This document shows positions 11,013-39,888 of a stretch of DNA of 64,000 nucleotides, piece after piece. Origin of the DNA: Hydrolagus colliei (Eukaryota). The notes under the pieces are model-generated. The model was not told the DNA's origin, searched no databases, and worked only from the letters and a program-made list of their open reading frames with translations. The stretch is from NCBI GenBank assembly GCA_035084275.1, contig CM068750.1:14012001-14076000 (forward strand), given 5' to 3'. A program made the translations under genes and the position numbers. Position 1 is the first letter of the stretch, and each line of letters starts with the position of its first letter.

Positions 11013-12027
11013 TCAGAAATGAGTAGGTATGAGGAGATCAGATTGATAAGGGGATGGCAGGTGTAAACAGATCTGTAGATCAGGGTGATGACATTGAAAT
11101 CAATCCATTGGGCGATAGGGACCACTAAGCACTGTGATGATAGGAGCTCCTGTAGCTCAGTGGTTAGAGCACTCACCTTACAAGCATGAGACCTGTGTTC
11201 AAATCCAGGCAGATCAGGGTGAAACCTTGGGCAAGTTTCCTTACTCCACATGCTGAATAATAATCCCTCCCAAAAAAAACCAGCAATAATAAATTGGTCA
11301 TTTCAACTCCACTTACAACTGCAAGTCCCAACATGCAGCAATAAAAAGCCAAAAGCAACAAGATTTTTTTTTAGAAAGGGTCAGCAAATAGCAGGCACAT
11401 AAAGGAATGTAAATAGCCTCTCCCAGTGCAAACCTCCATTTGAAGTTAAATGACACACCAGTTTGTTTCCAAAGCAGTTGGTGTGTGGCTCTACTTATCA
11501 CACAGAACAGCAAATCAATCCAATCACTTCAACGTGTGGTTTGATTGAGATGATTCAATTCACTGGCACCAACCAGCAAAGCAGCTTTAAAAAGACAGGT
11601 TAGACTGCTTAAACTTTGCAATATATTCTGTGAAGAGCTTCGAGACATCTCAACAAAGTGATAAAGTGCTACATCGAATGCAGAGATTATTGTTTTGTTT
11701 TTTTAAACGAACTACTCTTGTTTTCCGAACAAAAGTCAGGGAAGTGAGTGGAACTTTTACTGATCTCCAGGCATTCAAACTCTGTAGGAAGAGGAAACAA
11801 ATTCAAAACGTTACCTTGCAGCTACCAAAGATCGAGTGCAGAAAAGGCACACAGACTCTTCTTGAACGCAGTGCTAGTTCAAGTGTAGGATGTTTGGCAG
11901 ATTGTATGAGCCACAATACCACAAACTGCAGGGCAGGATGTAATTTCTGCCACTACAAAAGGAGAGTCTGTTTCCTCTTTCTGCGACTTTGCCTGTGATG
12001 AGGTCTGGCTACTGACGCTCCGTCACC

Positions 12028-12228
12028 ATGTCCTTCTGTCAACGCCCCAGCACTACAGTGCTCCTCGTCCTCATCTACCTGGCTTACCTACTGATTGGAG
12101 CCGCTGTGTTCCAGGCCCTGGAGTTACAAGAAGAAGACAAAACCAAGACTGTGGTCTGGAAAGAGAAATTCCACTTCCTGGAAAATTATACTTGTCTCAC
12201 TGCAGAGGCGTTGGAAGAGTTTGTGAAG
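12028..12228 (+). CDS. KCNK16: KCNK16-like coding exon 1 (N-terminus, M1, cap helices)
   Basis: [32 protein letters not shown]...[16 protein letters not shown]. The 3' boundary is uncertain: the homology-predicted donor reads AAG|TTAAGT, and an alternative in-frame GT donor lies after 12222. Confidence 0.88.
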
Positions 12229-15200
12229 TTAAGTAATTCTGATCTCTGTATGTGTGTGTGTGTTTGTGTTGTTATTTGGAGAGTTATAATATGACCATTC
12301 ATATTTGTAAAGTTTAAGCAACAAGCAATCTTAAGTTCCCTGATTATAGGAAGTACTAGTAACAACTCTTCATGTTGGCTACAAAGAGAGAATCCCGCAG
12401 AGGAGGAACAGAAAAACAGAGAAGGAAGGGTCCCAATCCTGACTGTAAAATACCTTTGCAAAACAAAATTGGCCTTCACAATTCCATTATCTGTAAAGTT
12501 GCTAACTTTGCAGGAGGAAATCAAATCATCCACAATTCTTATAAAGCATCAGATTGTCCACAATTCGTCTAAGATACATTCGGAGTCCGGGAGCGTACTT
12601 CCTCTCCCCTCCCCAATCTTCTGTGTTTGTTCTGTGTGTTTCCTTTGATAACCAAGTCTGCACCTCATTCATATTGATCCTCTTCAATGCACCTTTGAAG
12701 CTAGAGAGCTTTCAAAACTAAGAGGGAAATGTGTTCACTATTGAATGTTTGTGATTGAACATTACTGAAGCTTAAGGGGAGGCTGTTTGAATGAAGATGG
12801 TCCTTCAATCCATTTGATCTAATTCTTTTAGAATTACAATAGCTCATACAATATCGAGCTATTTCTTAAATTGAGGCCAGCATCCTCAAACATCCTGCCT
12901 GGTAACCTTTTCTAATTCTGGGTACCAAGAATGGGACAACTAGTGATGAAAACGAACAATTGCTTGTGTAAAAACGTGTTGGTTTCAGTGAACAAAATGT
13001 TTTATTTTTCCACATTTACTTCAGATCAAAGATAATTGGAAAAAGAACCAGAGGGGAGATGAAGAGGATTTGTTTTAATGCAGCTTGTTGATACAATCAG
13101 GAATGCACTGTCTGAAAGAGTGGTGCAAGCAGATTCAATACTAACTTTTAAAAGGGAATTGGATAATTAATTGAAAAGAAAAAAATTGCTATGAAGAACA
13201 AGTGGAGTGGGGGGAGTGGGACTAATTGGATAGCTCTTTCAAAGTGCGGGCACGGACATGATGGACATGGACATGAATGGCATCTTTCTGTGCTCTCTGA
13301 ATCTATGTTTAATATTTGAACACAACTTTAATCCAGATTTGGGAAGAAGCAGTGCAAGTACAGAGCTCAAATAACATGAGTTATATTTGCTATCACTGTA
13401 GGTCATGATTGAAGCCTTGAAACATGGAGTCAACCCTATCGGCAATTCTTCCATGTCTGCTCACAGTAACTGGGATTTTGGCAGCTCTTTCTTTTTTGTG
13501 GCCACCGTTGTGACGACAATAGGTGAGATTTATCACAATATAAATATTCAGACAACGAAAAGTAGTGTAAAGTATGTGCTTGTCAAGGCCAACCCTTAAC
13601 CTAATCAAACAAGTATCAGAGAAGGGAGTTTCTTCCCATGCACTGGTCACCAATCCTCCAGCTGAAATTGCTTATTGGCTTATTGTTTTGTAAAACAATG
13701 CTAAGCACAAGTTAACTACCGCAAAATTCAACAATCAGACCACCTTCATCATACCCTGTAAAGTGCTTTGGGATGTCTTGATTACGTGATGAAGCACTGT
13801 ATCAAATGAAAGGATTTCTTATTATTTTGGAATGTGCTAGGCTGTAAAGCCAAACTGAAAGTCTATCATCATGGGACTTTTATTTTACAAACCTAGCACA
13901 CAAGATAAAATCAAGAATTGAATAACGAGCTGCATTCTGGTCAGTGTAAAAGTGTTTCATTGTTCAATTCCAGTTGGTATGTACACAAATGTTGAATGAG
14001 TAATAGCAATTTTATTTGCATGATTTTCCTTCTCAATCATCAATAAAGATCTGTAGTGTACAACATGATTGAGGCCACCCTGAAGAGATACGAAAGAGCA
14101 GCAATTTGGTATCAGCCTAGGTTTATTGGCAGCGTTTGTACCTCTGTGTTAGAAAGCTCTGGGTTCAAGTCTCAGGATAATAATAATAATCCTTGTATTT
14201 GATAAAGCGCATTATTCAGTCCAGAGTTGGAGGACCGCTGTACTATTGTAGGTGTTATGATTTCAATTAGGTATTAAAACGAGGTCCAGTTCACTCAGGT
14301 GGATGTTAAAAATCCCAGGACACAATTCGAAAAGAGAAGAGAGTTTCTCCGGGGTCCCAGGCAACAATATTCCAAATAAATTGATCCTTCACGTCCATAA
14401 TACTTTGTGGCTGTGTGCAGATCAGCAGCCGTTTTTGCCTAGAGTCACTTACTTAACAGGAATTAATGTAAAACATTTTGATATGTACAGGCACTGTGTT
14501 AAATGCTATTACTATTTGCTTCTCCTTTTTCTTCCAAAGGCTATGGAAACCTTTCCCCAAGCACAGCTGAAGGCCAGATCTTTTGTGTGTTCTATGCACT
14601 GTTTGGAATCCCGCTCAACTTGATCGCTCTGGGGCTAGTTGGGAAACACTTATCCTCCTACACGGATAAAATGCGCACATGCCTAACCAACAGATGTTTG
14701 ATGGAGGTACGCTTACATTTTTACAAATATTGCATCAAAAAGCCAATTCACATTTTGGGTTAGCAAAATGTATACAAATCTTGACCATTGTCATTTTATA
14801 TCGGAACCATTGCTATGTTCCATCATTGATTCAATGCAATGTCTGAATGCCATGGCCAACAATCCCCCAGATAAAATTGGTCATTGATTTCATAGCTGTT
14901 TGACTTTCATTGCTCTGTGCAAACCGTGGAGTCCTGCAGCATAGTGGTTAGTGAGCTCACCTAGTGGCCACCGTTGTGATGGCACTAGGGGACATTTATC
15001 ACCTTGTAAATATTCAGACACAATTCTCGATTCTAGATAAGGCAAATGTAAGGATTATCATTATGATTGTCAGACGCATTGACCTGCAAAATACGCAACC
15101 AAATACAGTATTTTTGCAGCAATTACTTGAAAAAAATCTTTTCAGGAGCTAGATCAAACGCAATGGGTTTTACTATTCAATTATATTTCTCGGTTTCAGA

Positions 15201-17895
15201 AAAGAGTGAACGTTTTAGCGTTCTCACTCTCACTGTTGGCTGGTGTGCTGGTCTTCCTGCTGATACCACCACTGGTCTTCAGTACAATGGAGGACTGGTC
15301 CTACAGAGAGGGCATTTACTACTCCTTCATCACTCTCAGCACCATTGGGTTTGGAGATTATGTAGTAGGTGAGTCGTACATTTTTTCTCAAAAAACAGCT
15401 TGCATTTACATAGCACCCCTCACGCAGGGTAGTGTCCCAGAGCGCTTGACAGTGGTGGACGACACAGAACAGGTGGGAAGGAATAGGTCAAAGAGGAAGG
15501 TCTACAAGCACAACTTGAAGATGGAGAAGGAAGGGGCAAGGAGGAGGGATGGAGGAAGAGTGTTCCAGAGTTTATGGTCATAGTGGCTGAAAGCGCAGCC
15601 ACTGATGGTGAAACGGAGGGCATGAGGGACAAGCAGAAGGTGTGAATTCACAATTCAAAAGACGTGAAAAGGGAGAATACTTTGTAACAGCATTGCATCC
15701 TCACATCAAGTCCTGGTGATAGGGTTTTGGTGGAAATTTAATGCAGGGCAAACCTTTTACTGTATTAAGAATCTCATTTGAGTGTGAGTTCACTTTTAAT
15801 ATGGTTAAATTCAATACAATAATGATTCAGAGGAACTCTGGGATAGAATTCCAAAGACTGGGGCAGAATAAATGCACAGATATCCCTTTTGTGGGATAGG
15901 CTGTTTATAGCTCCTGACCTCCTGAATAGCTTTCAGACCCAACCCAGTATTAGCAGGAACAACCCTCAGCGAGTTCCAGATCAATAATAGACAGAGGCGA
16001 AAGAATAATCAGGTGAAGTTACTTTACTCCAATTATTGCCACACTGAATGAAGGACAGAACTGCCAGTTATTTACTTTGTCCAGCAAGCGGCAATTACTG
16101 AGAGAAATAGCTCCACCTTGATAAATGCAATGCCAATTAAATCACTGATTTAAAAGCAGAATGAATGAATCAATCAAACAAAACTTACATTTAAATAGTG
16201 CCATTCACGTTGAGAGGACATCCCAAGCTGCACAGTTAATTAGGGACAAGAGCAGGGGAAGAGGGGTCTGGGCAGGACGAAGAAGAGTAGGAAAATTGAC
16301 TGTATATTTGTGGGCGAAACGCGGCAGCCAAATTGCGCACAGCAGTGTCCCACAAACAGTAATGGAAGTGGGATTAAGGGAAATGAAGATCAATAGTGTG
16401 AGTAGCTGTGAGGTATTTTCAGTTAAATGACATTGATTTCCCAGGAGATAAGACCCCACACATTGAACATTACTCATTGGTTTGTTGAATTAAACTGTTG
16501 ACATATGGACTGTACAGCAAACAGAGTATGTGGTAGTCAACCAAACTGAGGTGTACCCCACCTGCCTCACTTTGAGTTAAACATTCTTACGCCCTTGAAA
16601 AGCCAGCATTTCCTGTACATTGAGCTACAGATGGCCATCTTTGATAACCTCAAAGGGTAGGTTTGTAATACAAAGTCTCACTGAGCATTGCATTTGAAGA
16701 TTCCAACACCAAACATCATTTTAAAGTTTTTCCATGTGACACAACCATCACCCCAACCTTGCTGGGTTTCACTGCGTATCCCCACCCGCCCCAAATGATA
16801 GAATTCAAGATCCTTATTCTCACCTTCATATCCTTCCAAGGTCTTTCCCCACCCGACCATGCACCTCTGCAGCCTCCTTCGATCCTACTGACCTGGCCAC
16901 TCCCTTTGCTTATTGAGCAGCAGCCTGCTTTATCTGCCCCATCCTACCATTAACAGGTGAGCGTTCAGTTTTTCTGCCACCGCTCTCTGGAACTCAACTC
17001 CTCTGACTCATTACCTCTATCCCCTTGTTAAAGGCCAGTCCGAAGATTTACATCTTTGACCAAACCCTTGTCATCATCACTCCACCACCACCCACCTTGG
17101 CCCCCACCACTCCCAACTCAAACCTCCAGTTCCCTGGGAAATCCTTCCAATGTGCAAAGTGCTATATAAATACAATTTTTTGTTGTTGTTGTAAGATTTT
17201 GCAAGATTGTAAAGAATTCTCAAATTGAATCTTTATCTGGAAGTCAAGCTTCTTAAAATCTGCCAATCGACTAACAACCTGGTTCCTACTTACTGCTAGG
17301 TAAACAGAGGCATGTAAGGAAACTTGACTATGGTTTAGCTCGAGGTCCTCTCACTTTTAGAAACAAGTCAATAAAGAACAGAGTAGGCGGGAGAGAGTAG
17401 GAGAAAGCTTGTGAAATTAACTGTTACTAACTGCAATGAAAGTTTATTTTGGCTGCCTGAATAACTAACAGTATTTATCTGTATCGTAAAGGCGTCAATC
17501 CCAAGAAGATATACGGCAGCATTTACCGGGGGCTGGTGGCAATCTGGATTCTCTTCGGGATGGCCTGGCTGGCTCTCCTTTTCAACCTGTTGACCGACTT
17601 TATGGAAAACTCGAAAAAGAAAATTGTGGAAATGAAGAAGAAGAAGAAAAAAGCGTCAGCGAAGGAGGGTGGGACAAGCGAGGCAGGTGACGAGAGCCCA
17701 GACTCCATCACGTTACACTTGGAGACGTCACTGAACTCGAAAACGGAGCTCGAGAAAGAGGCCGTCAAAGTTTCGAAACCGGGTGAGGAACCACCAGAGG
17801 AGCTGAAGGTACTGGAGGCACATTCTAAACCGGAGGAGAAGGAAACAAAGTCTGGCTCCGAATCCGAAGTGGAGACTGTGGAGCCAGGCTACTAG
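12028..17895 (+). CDS. KCNK16: Two-pore-domain K+ channel, TALK subfamily (KCNK16/TALK-1-like); spliced CDS join(12028..12228,13402..13522,14540..14706,15200..15368,17492..17895), 1062 nt, about 353 aa
   Basis: Assembled exons give M1 ([22 protein letters not shown]), cap ENYTC, P1 [25 protein letters not shown]2 [17 protein letters not shown]3, P2 [18 protein letters not shown] and M4 [18 protein letters not shown]. These match human KCNK16 motifs as I recall them ([35 protein letters not shown]). Exon phases are 0/1/0/1 and consistent. Kozak context is GTCACCATG. Confidence 0.9.
13025..13310 (+). mobile_element. Older CR1 3' end in KCNK intron 1
   Basis: GAATGCACTGTCTGAAAGAGTGGTG..AAAAGGGAATTGGAT..GCTCTTTCAAAG..GAATGGC..GAATCTATG, homologous to the CR1 3' end at 39700-39960. 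Confidence 0.75.
13402..13522 (+). CDS. KCNK16: KCNK16-like coding exon 2 (pore helix 1)
   Basis: Acceptor ctgtag|GTC; [40 protein letters not shown](G); donor AG|gtgaga, phase 1. Confidence 0.93.
14110..14512 (+). mobile_element. DeuSINE copy in KCNK intron 2, ending just before the exon-3 acceptor
   Basis: Head GGGTTCAAGTC, core TTAAAACGAGGTCC..CAGGTGGATGTTAAAAATCCC, and tail. It contains an antisense SINE-tail fragment at ~14178-14212. Confidence 0.7.
14540..14706 (+). CDS. KCNK16: KCNK16-like coding exon 3 (GYG filter, M2)
   Basis: Polypyrimidine tract and aag|GC; (G)[37 protein letters not shown]...LME; donor GAG|gtacgc, phase 0. Confidence 0.93.
14964..15020 (+). repeat. 57-bp degenerate copy of the KCNK exon-2 3' end and intron-2 start (13498-13554)
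   Basis: Ungapped alignment with 49/57 identities; the donor GT has become GG. Confidence 0.9.
15200..15368 (+). CDS. KCNK16: KCNK16-like coding exon 4 (M3, pore 2 GFG filter)
   Basis: Acceptor tttcag|AAA; [56 protein letters not shown](G); donor G|gtgagt, phase 1. Confidence 0.93.
15392..15640 (-). mobile_element. L2 3' fragment (antisense) in KCNK intron 4
   Basis: Reverse complement of the L2 tail (CTTGCATTTACATAGCACCCCTCAC..GTCAAAGAGGAAGGTCT..GAGTGTTCCAGAG). Similar copies lie at ~29157-29400 and ~41768-41990. Confidence 0.6.
16665..17192 (+). mobile_element. Old L2 LINE 3' fragment in KCNK intron 4
   Basis: Similar to 23865-24425 and 35785-36038 (GAATTCAAGATCCTT, CTCTGGAACTC, CATCTTTGACC), ending GCTATATAAATACAA(TTG)n. 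Confidence 0.6.
17492..17895 (+). CDS. KCNK16: KCNK16-like coding exon 5 (M4 and C-terminal tail, stop TAG)
   Basis: Branch-point-like TAACTAAC at 17462-17469, acceptor aaag|GC; (G)[33 protein letters not shown]...EPGY*. Confidence 0.9.
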
Positions 17896-21400: not shown

Positions 21401-22987
21401 CTCGCTTTTCCCACTGTACAAATGAAGTGCTCATTTTTCCAGGAATAATGCCCGGTTTCACCAGCAATTCAGACCTGCGCTGGAGTCTCAAAGTTTTGTA
21501 CCGCATGATTGCACATGATTACACTAACATGACAAGCTATGAGCTTTTAGTTGATTAAACTCCAGCAATCCACACTTGTGAGGTCCCCAAGCACTGGAGT
21601 CGAATACTCTCTGTAAATGATATTAATCCTTGCATTTGATTTTGCACCTCATCACGACAACAAGTAGTATAAAAGCACTTCAAAGGACACACTGTAAAGT
21701 GGAGTGGCCGTGTATTTTGTGGGTGAAATGCAGGTACCGAGTTGCGCCAAGCAATGTTCCACAACCAGCCATGGAGTGAGCGACCAATTTGACTTGAGGG
21801 ATTCATTGGCCAGGCATTCCGAGAACCTTCCTTCTCTTTTCAAATGGTGCTATGAGATCTTTAACAAGAACAGGCAGGTGGGACCTCAGTTTAACGTCTC
21901 ATTCAAAGGCCAGAACATTTGACAATACAATCCCATTCCCTCCCACCATTTGGTAAGGAGGGCAGATCTTTTAGCGAGAGAGAGAATGATGGTTAGCAGA
22001 GGATTCAGAGAGGAGCCAGGTGGATGAGTCTGGGCCACTGGGCTCCTGTTAACGAGGGGGAGACACACAATATTCAGCTCATTTTCATCAGAAGAAAGGA
22101 AACAGAGATGACATAATCCAGTTCTTTAACATGCAGAGAGGAAAACAGTTGAGATGTGGCTGCTTGCTTAACCTGAGCTATCTCCTGTGGCACAACTGCT
22201 GAATCAATAAGCCTCAATTCAGACAAGAAACCTCAAGGATATGAGCATACATTCTCTGTGTGTCACACACATGCACCTACATACACACGGAATGCAAAAG
22301 CCCGCACACAGAACACACCTGCACAACATACACACAGCACAACACACCCACACACATCATAGAGTTTGGATAAATACTTGGTTTACAAATGGGGTTTGAA
22401 GAAAAAGGAATATGTGTGGACAGATGTTCAAACACTCCATGATTCCTGAGCTGCTGGGACTGTGTAAATGTCATCAGCGGGAAGTCATCAGGCTGAACAG
22501 TGGAGGTGTAAGCAGATAGATGGCTTTTTACTCTGCTATCATTCGAAGAAATCAGGAAGAAATTTTCCAGAACTTTTTCCAGATGAGTAATGGAGGAGGG
22601 GTGGTGGGTGAGGAAATGTTTGGGGACATTATTGAAGAACTTTTAATACATTTTGAAGGGCGCAGCACAACTTCAATAATGATAAGAATAAGAACAAACA
22701 ATTAGAATAGTAATAATAACAATTAGAATAATATTTGCACTTGATGTGCACCTTATGGTGTTGAAACACATCAAAAGCTCTCCATGCAATGCAATACTTT
22801 GTCTGTATAACAAGGGTCAGTGCACTTCAAAAGCTGCAGCTAATATGTGCACCGCAAATAGCAACGAGATGAATGACCTAACAATTGAAGTCAATCCAAA
22901 GGTATTGCTATTCCAGTGCATCCTTTGTGGTGTTCAAATAAAGTTGGTGGTAATAATCAACAAATATCAGCAATCATATAAAACAAA

Positions 22988-23794
22988 GAGGTGATGCATT
23001 TTGGGAGAAGAAATGAAGGGAGGCAATATAGGCTAGATAGTAAAAATTTAAATGGTGTGAAGGAACAGAGAGACCTGGGGATTTGTGTTAGTGACTCGTT
23101 GAAGGTGGCAGGACAGGTAGACAAGGCTGTTAAGAAGGCATATGGGATACTAGGCTTTATAAATAGGGGTATAGAGTACAAAAGTCAGGAAGTGCTGACT
23201 AACCTCTATAAGACTTTGGTGAGGCCTCAGCTGGAATACTGTGTTCAATTCTGGTCACCACATTACAGAAAGGATGTGAAGACATTGGAAAGGGTACAAA
23301 GAAGATTTACTAGGATGGTGCCAGGATTGAGGGACTTCAGCTATGAGGAGAGGTTAGATAGGCTAGGGTTATGCTCTCTGGAGCAGAGAAGATTGAGGGG
23401 AGACCTAATAGAGGTTTATAAAATCATGAGGGGTTTCGACAGGGCAAATAGAGAAAAACTATTTCCACTCGTGGGCGAATCTGTGACTCGTGGTCACAGA
23501 TTTAAAATAGTTTCAAGGCGAAGTAGAGGGGAGCTGAGGAGAAATTTTTTCACTCAGCGAGTTGTTCGAATCTGGAATGCATTGCCTGAAAAGGTGGTGG
23601 AGGCTGATTCGATAACAACTTTTAAAAGGGAATTAGATCTTTATTTAGGGATTTAGGGAGAACAGGTCTATTAGGCTATGGGGAGCGGGCAGGGCAGTGG
23701 GATTAAATCGCTCTTTTCAAAGAGCCGGCACAGACTAGATGGGCCGAATGGCCTCCTTTTGTGCCGTAAAATTCTATGAATCTATGAATCTATG
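22988..23794 (+). mobile_element. 5'-truncated CR1 LINE 3' fragment, same young family as 36391-39990
   Basis: Aligns to 39178-~39968 with about 16 substitutions by eye plus an 8-bp ATTTAGGG duplication. Tail ATTCTATG-AATCTATG-AATCTATG. Confidence 0.95.
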
Positions 23795-36038: not shown

Positions 36039-36390
36039 CGAGACATCACTGTGTGCAAATTGGCTGCCACGTTTGCCTGCAAGTTCACAGTCACTACAAC
36101 GTACAGTAATTTCCCACAAGACGCTTGAAGACTTCTCAACGATGTGATAAGGCACTGTATCAAAACGGGTTTGGGTGGAAAATTCTGCTGAACTTTACTA
36201 ATGTGTGAATACAACAACAACCTGAATTTATGTAGCACCTTTCATGCAAGATTTCCTAAACGGAAAATTCCATTCGTGAGGTCAACATTGCCAAAGGTAC
36301 TACAGGTGATATATAACAGAGTTTTTGTCCATGTACAGGTTAAACGTGTCGTGTTTCTTAACCCAATCCTTATGCTAATTAACATGAACC

Positions 36391-36978
36391 ATTTCCAACA
36401 GGTATGAAGTACTTTCAACCTGTTTGGATAAGGAGGTCTGTGAGGAGGTTGGACAAACCAACTCCCTCAAGACCATTTTAATAGGAGATACAACTGTCCG
36501 AGGTATAGATAGGCGTTTTTGTGAACGGAAACGCGAATCTCGGAAGGTGTGTTGCCTACCAGGTGCCAGGGTTGAAGACTTGGCTGAGCGGGTGCATGAA
36601 ATTCTGCTAGGGGAAGGGGAAAATCCACTTGTGGTGGTCCATGTTGGGACCCATGAAGTTGAGAGGAAAAGACCTGAGATGCTCCAGGGAAAGTACCAGA
36701 GACTAGGGAGTAAACTAAAAAGTGGAACTTCGAGAGTGGTGATCTCTGGGTTGCTTCCAGTGCCTCGAGCAAGCCAGTTCCAGAATGCTAGAATAAGGCA
36801 CATCAATGCATGGCTGGAGAAGTGGTGTAGGAAGGAGGGTTTCTGGTTCCTAGACCATTGGGACCAATTCTGGGGTAGGTGGAACCTGTACAAAATGGAT
36901 GGGTTACACCTGAACAGGGCTGGAACCAATCTCCTTGCAGGGAGGTTGTCGAGTTTTGTGGGGGGGGCTTTAAACTAA
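36391..36978 (+). CDS. CR1 ORF1 C-terminal part: SGNH/GDSL-type esterase domain
   Basis: SNRYEVL motif, then ILIGDTTVRGID, CCLPGARVED, VVVHVGTHE, VVISGLLP and DGLHLNRAG. The frame is closed by TGA at 36385, marking the truncation junction. Confidence 0.85.
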   Translation: MSNRYEVLSTCLDKEVCEEVGQTNSLKTILIGDTTVRGIDRRFCERKRESRKVCCLPGARVEDLAERVHEILLGEGENPLVVVHVGTHEVERKRPEMLQGKYQRLGSKLKSGTSRVVISGLLPVPRASQFQNARIRHINAWLEKWCRKEGFWFLDHWDQFWGRWNLYKMDGLHLNRAGTNLLAGRLSSFVGGALN

Positions 36979-37101
36979 TCCCGGGGGGTGAGGGTGGGAA
37001 ACTGATCAGTAGTTCAAATACGGGAGGGGTAATAAAGAGGACAGGGGGTAAAGCTAAGACGGGAGAAAAATGCAGAGGAAGTAATTTGTGCCTTAGAGTG
37101 C

Positions 37102-39888
37102 ATGTATGTAAATGCACGAAGTTTGAGAAATAAAATTGGTGAGCTGCAGGCTCAGGTTGCTGCGAGGCGATATAATGTTATAGCAGTAACAGAGACTTGG
37201 CTCCAGCATGGGCAGGAATGGGAGTTGAACATTCCTGGTTATAATGTATTCAGGAGGGATAGAGAGGGGAGAAAAGGGGGCAGGGTGGCAATTTTAGTTA
37301 AGGACTCAGTGACTGCCTTAGAAAGGAACGAGGTGGAAGAAGGACTAAAAAATGAATCTATCTGGTTAGAATTGAGGAATAAAAAAGGTGCAGTTACACT
37401 GTTAGGGGTATACTATAGACCACCAAATAGTGGGGAGGAGATAGACAAGCAGATCTGCAAGCGTATCATGGAGAAATGCAGAACTAATAGAGTAGTGATA
37501 ATGGGTGACTTCAACTATCCCAACATAGACTGGCAGAATAGTAGAGTAAAGGGCAAGAAGGGAGAAGAATTCCTGAAGTGTGTGCAGGACAACTTTCTTG
37601 ATCAGTATGTTTCCAGTCCAACGAGGAAAGAAGCATTGCTGGATCTAGTTTGGGGAAATGAGGTAGGGCAAGTTCAACAGGTTTCTGTAGGTGAGCATCT
37701 AGGGAATAGTGACCACAATATCGTTAGATTCAGAATAATTATGGAAAGGGATAAGGAACGATCACAGGTGAGGACACTCAACTGGAAAAGGGCTAATTTC
37801 AATGAGTTGAGGTGGGACCTAGCCAAGGTGGATTGGAAAGAAAAATTGGCAGGTAAGACAACTAACGAGCAGTGGGCAGCGTTCAAAGAGGAGATAGTTC
37901 AGGCACAGGTCAAAAGCATCCCCACAAAGGTGAAATGTAAGGCATCCAAACCTCCCTGGATGACTAAGGAAATCGGGGCCAAAATAAAACAAAAAAAAGA
38001 GACTTATGATAAGTGTCAGGCTCAAAATTCAGAAGGGAACAAAGCAGAATATAGGAAGTGTAGGATAGAACTAAAAAAGGAAGTTAGAGGGGCAAAGAGA
38101 CTGCATGAAAAACAATTTGCGAGTAAGATTAAGGGGAACCCTAAGGTTTTTTACCAACATATTAAGAGTAAAAGGTTGGTCAAGGAGAGGGTGGGGCCAA
38201 TTAGGGACCTAGGAGGAAATCTCATTGTGGAGGCAGAGGGCATGGCTGATGTACTGAATGAGTACTTCGCCTCTGTCTTCACAAAAGAAAAGGATACAGC
38301 CAATGCCATGGTATTAGAGGAGAGGGTAGGAGAAATGGATAGAATAATTATAACCAGAGAGGAAGTGCTAAAAAGGTTGACGTCGCTCAAGGTGGATAAG
38401 TCACCTGGTCCGGATAGGATGCACCCTAGGTTACTAAGTGAGGCACGGGAGCAAATAGCAGGGACTCTGGCCACGATCTTTCAATCTTCCTTGGACACAG
38501 GGGTCGTGCCAGAGGACTGGAGGATAGCTAATGTTACTCCCTTGTATAAAAAGGGGCAGAAGGACAAGCCTGGTAACTACAGACCAGTCAGTCTAACGTC
38601 GGTAGTGGGCAAACTTCTAGAGTCCATAATCAGGGACAAGGTAGATCTTCACTTAGAAAGATATAGGCTAATAAAGGACAGTCAACATGGATTTGTTAAA
38701 GGCAAATCTTGCCTTACAAATCTGATAGAATTTTTTGATGAGGTAACGGAATGGGTGGATAATCGTAGCGCAGTTGATGTAGTTTACATGGACTTTCAAA
38801 AGGCATTTGACAAAGTGCCACATGAGAGACGTATTATGAAATTAAAGGCCCATGGCGTAAAAGGGACAGTGGCAGCGTGGATCCACAACTGGCTGTGAGA
38901 CAGAAAGCAGAGAGTTGTAGTGAGCGGCTGTTTTTCAGATTGGAGGGAAGTGAGCAGTGGTGTGCCACAGGGATCAGTTTTGGGACCATTGCTGTTTGTA
39001 ATCTACATCAATGATCTGGACTTGGGTGTACGGAGTACAGTTTCCAAGTTTGCAGATGACACTAAGTTAGGGAGAATAGTAAACAGTGAGGAGGATAGTA
39101 GCCATCTGCAAGAGGATATAGACAAATTGGTAAAGTGGGCAGACACATGGCAGATGAAGTTTAATGCAGAGAAGTGTGAGGTGATGCATTTTGGGAGAAG
39201 AAATGAAGGGAGGCAATATAGGCTAGATAGTACAATTTTAAATGGTGTAAAGGAACAGAGAGACCTGGGGATTTGTGTTAGTGACTCGTTGAAGGTGGCA
39301 GGACAGGTAGACAAGGCTGTTGAGAAGGCATATGGGATACTAGGCTTTATAAATAGGGGTATAGAGTACAAAAGTCAGGAAGTGCTGACTAACCTCTATA
39401 GGACTTTGGTGAGGCCTCAGCTGGAATACTGTGTTCAATTCTGGTCACCACACTACAGAAAGGATGTGAAGGCATTGGAAAGGGTACAACGAAGATTTAC
39501 TAGGATGGTGCCAGGATTGAGGGACTTCAGCTATGAGGAGAGGATAGATAGGCTAGGGTTATTCTCTCTGGAGCAGAGAAGATTGAGGGGAGACCTAATA
39601 GAGGTTTATAAGATCATGAGGGGTTTCGACAGGGCAAATAGAGAAAAACTATTTCCACTCGTGGGTGAATCTGTGACTCGTGGTCACAGATTTAAAATAG
39701 TTTCAAGGCGCAGTAGAGGGGAGCTGAGGAGAATTTTTTTCACTCAGCGAGTTGTTCGAATCTGGAATGCATTGCCTGAAAAGGTGGTGGAGGCTGATTC
39801 GATAACAACTTTTAAAAGGGAATTAGATCTTTATTTAGGGAGAACGGGTCTATTAGGCTATGGGGAGCGGGCAGGGCAGTGGGATTGA
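37102..39888 (+). pseudogene. CR1 ORF2 (APE endonuclease + reverse transcriptase) interrupted by a single in-frame stop at 38896-38898
   Basis: APE motifs YVNARS, VTETW, GVYYRPP, MGDFN, LDLV and SDHN. RT motifs NYRPVSLTS, QHGF, YMDFQKAFD, GVPQGSVLGP and FADD. ORFs 37102-38898 and 38920-39888 are in the same frame (HNWL*DRKQRV). Confidence 0.93.

What the first reader, a model, noticed from the sequence alone, without database searches (positions are those of the whole stretch)
12220..12240. KCNK16-like exon 1 has no canonical donor at the homologous position: AAG|TTAAGT
Seen: exon 2 must start in phase 0 (tag|GTC ATG ATT; the TAG at 13399-13401 is an in-frame stop). Homology to KCNK16 (..EQFVQ|VIMEA..) puts the junction after EEFVK at 12228, where the intron begins TTAAGT, a perfect consensus except G+1->T. 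Cutting at the overlapping AA|GTTAAGT site, which resembles the atypical donors read by +1-shifted U1 pairing (Roca and Krainer), gives AAG TCA TGA, an immediate stop. The GT at 12233 is also out of frame. The only in-frame GT is the weak TTT|GTGAAG, which deletes 2 aa of the cap helix. Inference: this is a true TT-AG intron, a regulated productive/NMD switch between adjacent registers, a loss-of-function allele, or an assembly error. All other exons are intact.
Basis: partly seen in the sequence, partly recalled or inferred. Interest (0 to 1): 0.7.

Follow-up and report, generated by a model that had tools for sequence, protein, structure and literature searches.

The report
TT-start intron in chimaera potassium channel
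The first intron of an otherwise intact potassium-channel gene in a chimaera-type fish begins with TT instead of the near-universal GT; the T is real, is likely shared by a second species, and the intron is likely spliced anyway, as a handful of known human TT introns are.

Summary
Intron 1 of this KCNK16-like (KCNK16L) gene reads AAG|TTAAGTAA at 12228/12229, and splicing there gives an intact 353-aa channel. The T is not an assembly error: contigs of two runs match with no difference, and a run of another species most likely has it too. Exon 1 is as conserved as the other exons, and 199 of 209 homologues have exactly the cap-helix length that only the TT junction gives. Both Callorhinchus milii gene models fail at this junction, a hint that the odd donor is old in chimaeras. 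The site matches a known class, U2-type TT-AG introns (human ETV1, FBXO9, DDX46), and a published reporter with the same -3..+7 sequence spliced at the TT. Best reading: a functional TT-AG intron, probably with some leakage to the overlapping -1 GT, which gives an early stop (0.65). Rivals: the in-frame GT 6 nt upstream, a regulated register switch, or a weak allele. No RNA run held the junction, so use of the site is not shown. New member of a known kind; modest interest.

The parts
12028..12228 (+). Exon 1 coding part (67 codons: M1 helix, cap C1 helix, cap Cys56, first half of cap C2 helix)
   Evidence: 45 of 57 residues identical to the C. milii model P0004
12223..12224 (+). Weak in-frame GT donor 6 nt upstream (TTT|GTGAAGTT); use would remove Val-Lys
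   Evidence: 4 Watson-Crick pairs with U1, duplex -1.7 kcal/mol
12226..12236 (+). Non-canonical donor AAG|TTAAGTAA (proposed cleavage 12228/12229)
   Evidence: 8 Watson-Crick pairs, duplex -5.5 kcal/mol, the best of 20 candidates scored near the exon end
12228..12229 (+). Overlapping -1 GT (AA|GTTAAGT), out of frame; stop 450 nt upstream of the last junction
12233..12234 (+). Second GT at +5/+6, out of frame if used; part of the U1/U6 pairing consensus
   Evidence: its role in accurate TT splicing from PMC6280755
12237..12286 (+). U- and UG-rich tract downstream of the donor; possible intronic enhancer (inferred)
   Evidence: 52% T against 28-34% behind the three other donors; a TG repeat also follows a canonical paralogue donor
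12229..13401 (+). Intron 1, 1173 nt, TT-AG; weak branch-point-like ATAAC at 13371; acceptor TAG 13399-13401
13402..13522 (+). Exon 2 (rest of C2 helix, pore helix 1); ATG at 13405 opens a 285-aa frame without M1
14540..14706 (+). Exon 3 (GYG filter, M2)
15200..15368 (+). Exon 4 (M3, pore 2, GFG filter)
17492..17895 (+). Exon 5 (M4, tail, stop TAG)

Best explanation
Intron 1 of this chimaera KCNK16L channel gene starts with TT, and it is likely removed by the ordinary major spliceosome cutting at 12228/12229, which would give the full-length 353-aa channel. Shown: the T, the intact frame, the conservation of exon 1, a normal U1 5' end in this genome. Inferred: an ancestral AAG|GTAAGT donor took a G-to-T change at +1 in the chimaera lineage; U1 still pairs at -2, -1 and +2 to +7, and the second GT at +5/+6 and perhaps the purine-rich exon end and U/UG-rich intron start keep the site in use. 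A share of transcripts is likely cut one base earlier at the -1 GT and would be lost to nonsense-mediated decay, so output is probably lower than from a GT donor.
For: (1) Contigs of runs X1 and X4 cover 11950-12400 in one piece with 0 differences. (2) The contig of run X6 (organism B, about 2-3% different) runs unclipped to a stretch cut at 12231, whereas a mismatch 3 nt from a stretch end was clipped, so B most likely has T too (inference from the tool's behaviour). (3) The TT model is open for 353 aa and has 19 residues between cap Cys+1 and the Gly of GVNP, like 199 of 209 homologues that have exon 1; the junction lies inside predicted helix 61-76 of a shark orthologue. (4) Exon 1 is not decaying: 79% identical to C. 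milii against 77-92% for exons 2-4; 30-34 of 57 identical to six bony-vertebrate outgroups, against 22-32 for four sharks; end branch 0.15 against 0.21 for C. milii. (5) No other KCNK16 or KCNK17 gene was found in G000. (6) The TT register pairs best with this genome's U1. (7) PMC6280755: of four FANCC-type reporters with the +5/+6 GT, the three with reduced -3/-2 pairing spliced only at +1, and the oligo table lists AAG TTAAGTAg among the four; natural ETV1 spliced at +1, FBXO9 at +1 and -1. (8) Both C. milii models fail at this junction: one starts at exon 2, one is 2 aa short.
Against: No junction read was seen. The reporters were in human cells with added SRSF7 enhancers, and without enhancers non-canonical sites were almost unused; Roca et al. 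2012, as cited there, found the FANCC TT site spliced only at the -1 GT. 0 of 3 human TT donors checked (ETV1, FBXO9, DDX46) are TT in this genome, so there is no in-genome positive control. Odd models are common among the homologues: 45 of 254 lack exon 1 and 10 of 209 have another junction length, so the C. milii models are only a hint. The tool marks both X1 and X4 as possible sources of this DNA, so they may be one animal.
Confidence: 0.65

Rival explanations
1. The productive mRNA uses the in-frame GT 6 nt upstream (TTT|GTGAAG), helped by U1 bound at the TT site, and chimaeras make a channel whose cap C2 helix is 2 residues short.
For: It is canonical and in frame. The C. milii UniRef model P0004 has exactly this form. 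Tandem donors of this kind are known: FGFR GA with a GT 6 nt upstream (PMC4176328), DDX46 TT with a GT at -3.
Against: Very weak U1 pairing (4 Watson-Crick pairs, -1.7 against -5.5 kcal/mol). It deletes 2 residues mid-helix in a span that is invariant in 199 of 209 homologues. P0004 has no start Met and runs into intron 4, so it looks like a homology model. In DDX46 the TT site outcompetes the upstream GT, 50% against 16%.
Confidence: 0.14
2. The site is a selected register switch: cells tune +1 (full channel) against -1 (stop after 68 codons, overlapping the exon-2 ATG as ATGA), giving decay or a 285-aa subunit without M1.
For: The FBXO9 site, which differs only at +8, used both registers, and register choice shifted with enhancers. 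The -1 stop overlaps the ATG at 13405, whose frame is 285 aa, like the 286-aa C. milii RefSeq model. Shark and sturgeon RefSeq isoforms without exon 1 exist (P0235, P0009, P0239).
Against: No tissue or register data. The ATG is an ordinary codon of the conserved helix, so the overlap needs no selection. Leakage to -1 is expected from the sequence alone.
Confidence: 0.11
3. The T is a loss-of-function or strongly weakening change and the gene is an early pseudogene.
For: Most human GT>TT changes disrupt splicing (PMC6280755). KCNK16L was lost in rodents and primates (PMC3711925).
Against: No stop or frameshift in five exons, no acceleration of exon 1 or of the whole protein; T likely shared with a second species; no substitute TALK gene found.
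Confidence: 0.08
4. The T is a sequencing or assembly error.
For: X1 and X4 may come from the assembled animal.
Against: Their contigs were assembled apart from this genome and show 0 differences at word depth 31 and 50; organism B agrees by inference.
Confidence: 0.02

Closest known systems
Human U2-type TT-AG introns: FBXO9 (AAG|ttaagtat), ETV1 (AAG|ttaagttg), DDX46, LMOD1 (Parada 2014, PMC4176328; Erkelenz 2018, PMC6280755)
   Same: Same AAG|TTAAGT core, G at -1, second GT at +5/+6, AG acceptor; FBXO9 differs only at +8; DDX46 has the same +1..+8 and a competing in-frame upstream GT.
   Different: Different gene and lineage; these are RNA-validated and this one is not; three of them are not TT in this genome, so this is an independent origin.
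FANCC c.165+1G>T TT donor and its reporter variants (PMC6280755)
   Same: One variant has the same -3..+7 sequence and belongs to the set that spliced at +1.
   Different: A disease allele tested in human cells with added enhancers; here the site is a natural wild-type state.
FGFR GA-AG donor with a GT 6 nt upstream (Brackenridge 2003, seen only as cited in PMC4176328 and PMC6280755)
   Same: Non-canonical donor 6 nt downstream of an in-frame GT.
   Different: GA, not TT; there the non-canonical site depends on the GT, while TT sites did not need a highly used GT neighbour; the GT here is very weak.
Atypical 5' splice sites read by shifted U1 pairing (Roca and Krainer 2009, seen only as cited; the paper was not held)
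   Same: The -1 register reads GTTAAGTA and pairs with U1 by a bulge (-5.0 kcal/mol).
   Different: Here that register is out of frame, so it cannot be the productive site.
KCNK16L (Lovell et al. 2013, PMC3711925)
   Same: The protein falls in the clade with bird, crocodile, marsupial, platypus, amphibian, bony-fish and shark KCNK16-like proteins (100/98).
   Different: That paper found no fish orthologue; the tree here holds fish and shark members. No odd donor was mentioned in the passages read.

Membership tests
U2-type TT-AG intron | Genomic TT at +1/+2 with AG acceptor at the homologous junction | tested here: met
   three paralogues have GT at the same place
U2-type TT-AG intron | U2-like consensus around the TT (AG|TTAAGT, high U1 pairing, second GT) | tested here: met
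   8 Watson-Crick pairs; same core as FBXO9 and ETV1
U2-type TT-AG intron | Not a genomic variant or sequencing error | tested here: met
   two runs, 0 differences; second species, inferred
U2-type TT-AG intron | Spliced reads that cut exactly at the TT | not testable with these tools
   no RNA holder listed; no chimaera transcript-derived protein among the hits
Suppression by a variant U1 snRNA | U1 copy with a compensating change opposite +1 | tested here: not met
   11 of 12 U1 matches have the standard 5' end and the twelfth is degenerate; only 42 of 15948 candidates were scored
Shifted-register atypical GT donor as productive site | Cleavage before the G gives the coding frame | tested here: not met
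   stop after 68 codons; no rescuing micro-exon found
KCNK16L (K2P, TALK group) | Four membrane helices, two pore loops, cap with Cys | tested here: met
   predicted helices of orthologue P0126
KCNK16L (K2P, TALK group) | Groups with KCNK16L, apart from KCNK16 and KCNK17 | tested here: met
   19-row clade 100/98; KCNK16 clade 100/99 and KCNK17 clade 100/100 separate; 35 rows picked by hand from 256 proteins held
KCNK16L (K2P, TALK group) | Synteny with the bird chr5 locus | tested here: inconclusive
   40 kb of flanks gave no recognisable neighbour gene in a plain ORF listing
KCNK16L (K2P, TALK group) | Alkali-activated background K+ current | not testable with these tools
   needs expression and recording

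The most novel reading that the evidence does not exclude
The TT donor is fixed across all chimaeras, Callorhinchus included, in their only TALK-type channel gene, and has been kept as a one-base register switch: +1 gives the full channel, -1 gives a stop that overlaps the exon-2 ATG and either decay or an M1-less regulatory subunit, with the ratio set by tissue.
Probability: 0.11. Interest if true: 0.65.

Novelty: new member of a known kind. Interest (0 to 1): 0.36.

Why it matters
[quoted passage not shown] A case in a cartilaginous fish, arisen independently on the same AAG|TTAAGT background, supports the view that this one context lets the spliceosome tolerate +1 G-to-T, which bears on reading human +1G>T variants. 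It also explains why gene models of this channel are broken in C. milii, if the donor is shared. It does not open a new mechanism unless the register switch is shown.

Tried and rejected
RNA evidence: no RNA holder listed; run X13 (kind unknown) stops at 12119 and does not reach the junction; X7 and X12 laid nothing and X8 only 11960-12005. Protein search with exon 1 alone found nothing. Scan of metagenome contigs with P0004: 291 pattern matches, 0 confirmed. Micro-exon rescue of four out-of-frame GT donors: 0 candidates at the thresholds set (YAG, 10 of 15 pyrimidines, 7 U1 pairs). Upstream acceptors: excluded by the in-frame TAG. The +5 GT joined to the AG inside GAAGCC of exon 2 would be in frame (3 aa short) but must bypass the first AG; considered unlikely, not tested. 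Compensating U1: none seen. In-genome TT controls: ETV1, FBXO9 and DDX46 homologues are not TT. A pattern for a kinesin neighbour of KCNK5 found nothing, so the KCNK5 region was checked without a far boundary. Literature: no paper held three of the terms chimaera, Callorhinchus milii, non-canonical splice, TT-AG; searches listed nothing on this intron; PMC7072748 does not mention Callorhinchus in its main text. The library lacks most subscription papers, so this does not prove that the site is unreported.

Full report
Observation. The window reads GAG TTT GTG AAG (12217-12228) followed by TTAAGTAATTC; exon 2 begins at 13402 behind TAG. Joining 12228 to 13402 and the three GT-AG introns downstream gives 353 codons without a stop. 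Of 20 candidate donors scored between 12180 and 12300, the -1 GT and the +5 GT are out of frame; the GT after 12222 is in frame, as are weak GTs in the TG tract (after 12255, 12261, 12267, 12270, 12282) and two GCs upstream. The motif is not rare by itself; its position is what counts. Three paralogues in this genome (TREK-2-like, TREK-1-like, TASK-2-like; names by similarity and recall) have a phase-0 GT at the same place.

Is the T real? Thirteen runs hold part of the region, none on record as RNA; seven were laid. X1 and X4, different samples and studies of organism A, each cover 11950-12400 in one contig with 0 differences. The tool marks both as possible sources of this DNA, so they may be one animal, but they rule out a consensus error of the assembly. 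X6 (organism B) differs at 10 of about 410 laid bases. Its contig over the junction had 2 differences, one unlisted. With the stretch cut at 12231 it ran to the end unclipped and left no loose end, whereas a mismatch three bases from the stretch start was clipped. I infer T in organism B; the base was not printed.

What gene? Exon 4 is 82% identical to Callorhinchus milii and 64% to basking shark. In a tree of 35 hand-picked rows the model is sister to C. milii (100/99), inside a 19-row clade (100/98) apart from KCNK16 and KCNK17. This is the paralogue named KCNK16L in PMC3711925 (passages and section 29 read). No KCNK16 or KCNK17 was found in G000; these searches score only the best candidates, so absence is not proven.

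Is exon 1 alive? It is 79% identical to C. milii (45 of 57), against 92, 84 and 82% for exons 2-4 of the same model. Against six bony-vertebrate outgroups it scores 30-34 of 57; four sharks score 22-32. The end branch is 0.15. So exon 1 is under selection and must be joined in frame. Of 256 proteins held, 2 lacked the pore motif and were dropped, 45 lack exon 1, and 199 of the remaining 209 have 19 residues from cap Cys+1 to the Gly of GVNP, as the TT model does; the 10 others are automated models. These rows are related and include KCNK16 and KCNK17, so they are not independent. In an AlphaFold model of the Heterodontus orthologue the junction (69/70) lies inside helix 61-76. Two sturgeon proteins from 1.1-1.3 kb Logan contigs, probably transcripts, have the full-length junction.

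Callorhinchus. The RefSeq model XP_007891507.1 starts at the exon-2 Met; the UniRef model A0A4W3GIB7 is 2 aa short, the form that the upstream GT gives. Both failures are what a non-GT donor would cause. But 18% of homologous models lack exon 1 and 5% have an odd junction, and C. milii DNA could not be read, so this is a hint only.

Mechanism. 11 of 12 U1 matches in G000 have the standard 5' end. Against it the TT register makes 8 Watson-Crick pairs (-5.5 kcal/mol), the bulged -1 register -5.0, the +5 GT -4.0, the upstream GT -1.7; the gene's intron-3 donor scores -5.7. PMC6280755 (parts 1-6 of 9 read, and supplement passages; figures not seen; supplement file 1 not searched) ranks donors GC > TT > AT > GA > GG > CT, finds that TT sites can be primary sites, and that they need enhancers. 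Four reporters had the +5/+6 GT: CAG spliced at -1 and +1, the three with less -3/-2 pairing only at +1. The oligo table gives these as atG, CAG, AAG and CtG, so AAG TTAAGTAg, equal to this site from -3 to +7, is by inference one of the accurate three. FBXO9 (T at +8) used both registers, ETV1 only +1. Against this, the same paper reports that Roca et al. 2012 saw only -1 use for FANCC in another reporter. The intron start here is U/UG-rich and the exon end has 4 GAR triplets against 0-1 at the other donors; with four donors compared this is weak, and a TG repeat also follows a canonical paralogue donor. PMC4176328 (abstract, passages, first part of Results and supplement rows read; file 1 not searched) lists 10 TT-AG rows in its U2/U12-like sheet and validated ETV1 by RT-PCR. 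The homologues of ETV1, FBXO9 and DDX46 in G000 are not TT, so there is no internal control and this site arose independently.

Rivals. The upstream GT is canonical and mirrors FGFR and DDX46 tandem donors, but pairs poorly and shortens an invariant helix (0.14). The -1 product stops after 68 codons, 450 nt before the last junction, and its TGA overlaps the ATG that opens a 285-aa frame without M1; a regulated switch is possible but unsupported (0.11). Loss of function (0.08) and error (0.02) fit badly.

Verdict. A real, probably fixed TT donor of the known AAG|TTAAGT class in a chimaera KCNK16L gene. Shown: sequence, frame, conservation, standard U1. Inferred: T in a second species, use of the TT, leakage to -1, age. 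Searches showed no report of this intron; the library is incomplete. Earlier scan notes on LMOD1, a nicotinamidase and a shark defensin describe similar TT donors; they are leads, not support. New member of a known kind; interest 0.36.

Noticed in passing
G000:C2:56973210 (L035), minus strand: In the ETV1-like gene, the exon whose human counterpart ends in a TT donor has neither TT nor a consensus GT at the equivalent position; the only in-phase GT seen is a weak one 27 nt upstream, which would drop 9 codons.
   Followed up: partly
G000:C3:32916214 (L056) and C19:1552499 (L060): FBXO9-like and DDX46-like exons have plain GT donors where human has TT, so those TT sites are lineage-specific.
   Followed up: yes
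G000 whole; C3:88805001-89016900: No KCNK16 or KCNK17 gene was found with ray and alligator queries (24 of 44 and 17 of 37 candidates matched, all at loci of other K2P genes or this one) nor in about 170 kb upstream of KCNK5; chimaeras may have lost both. Absence is not proven.
   Followed up: partly
proteins P0235, P0009, P0232, P0239: Shark and sturgeon RefSeq isoforms of this gene lack exon 1; two shark models end their leader in Gln before exon 2, as if they start inside intron 1.
   Followed up: no
proteins P0110, P0090, P0138: Lizard KCNK17 and a gar KCNK16L automated model are also short at this junction; cause unknown.
   Followed up: no
window 36388-39885 (+) and 22982-23653 (+): Near-complete LINE (CR1-like by recalled motifs): an esterase-like frame, then endonuclease and reverse transcriptase frames of 620 and 329 aa split by one stop; a second 3' fragment upstream.
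   Followed up: no
window 14537-14539 and 17489-17491: Introns 2 and 4 of this gene end in AAG, a less common acceptor.
   Followed up: no
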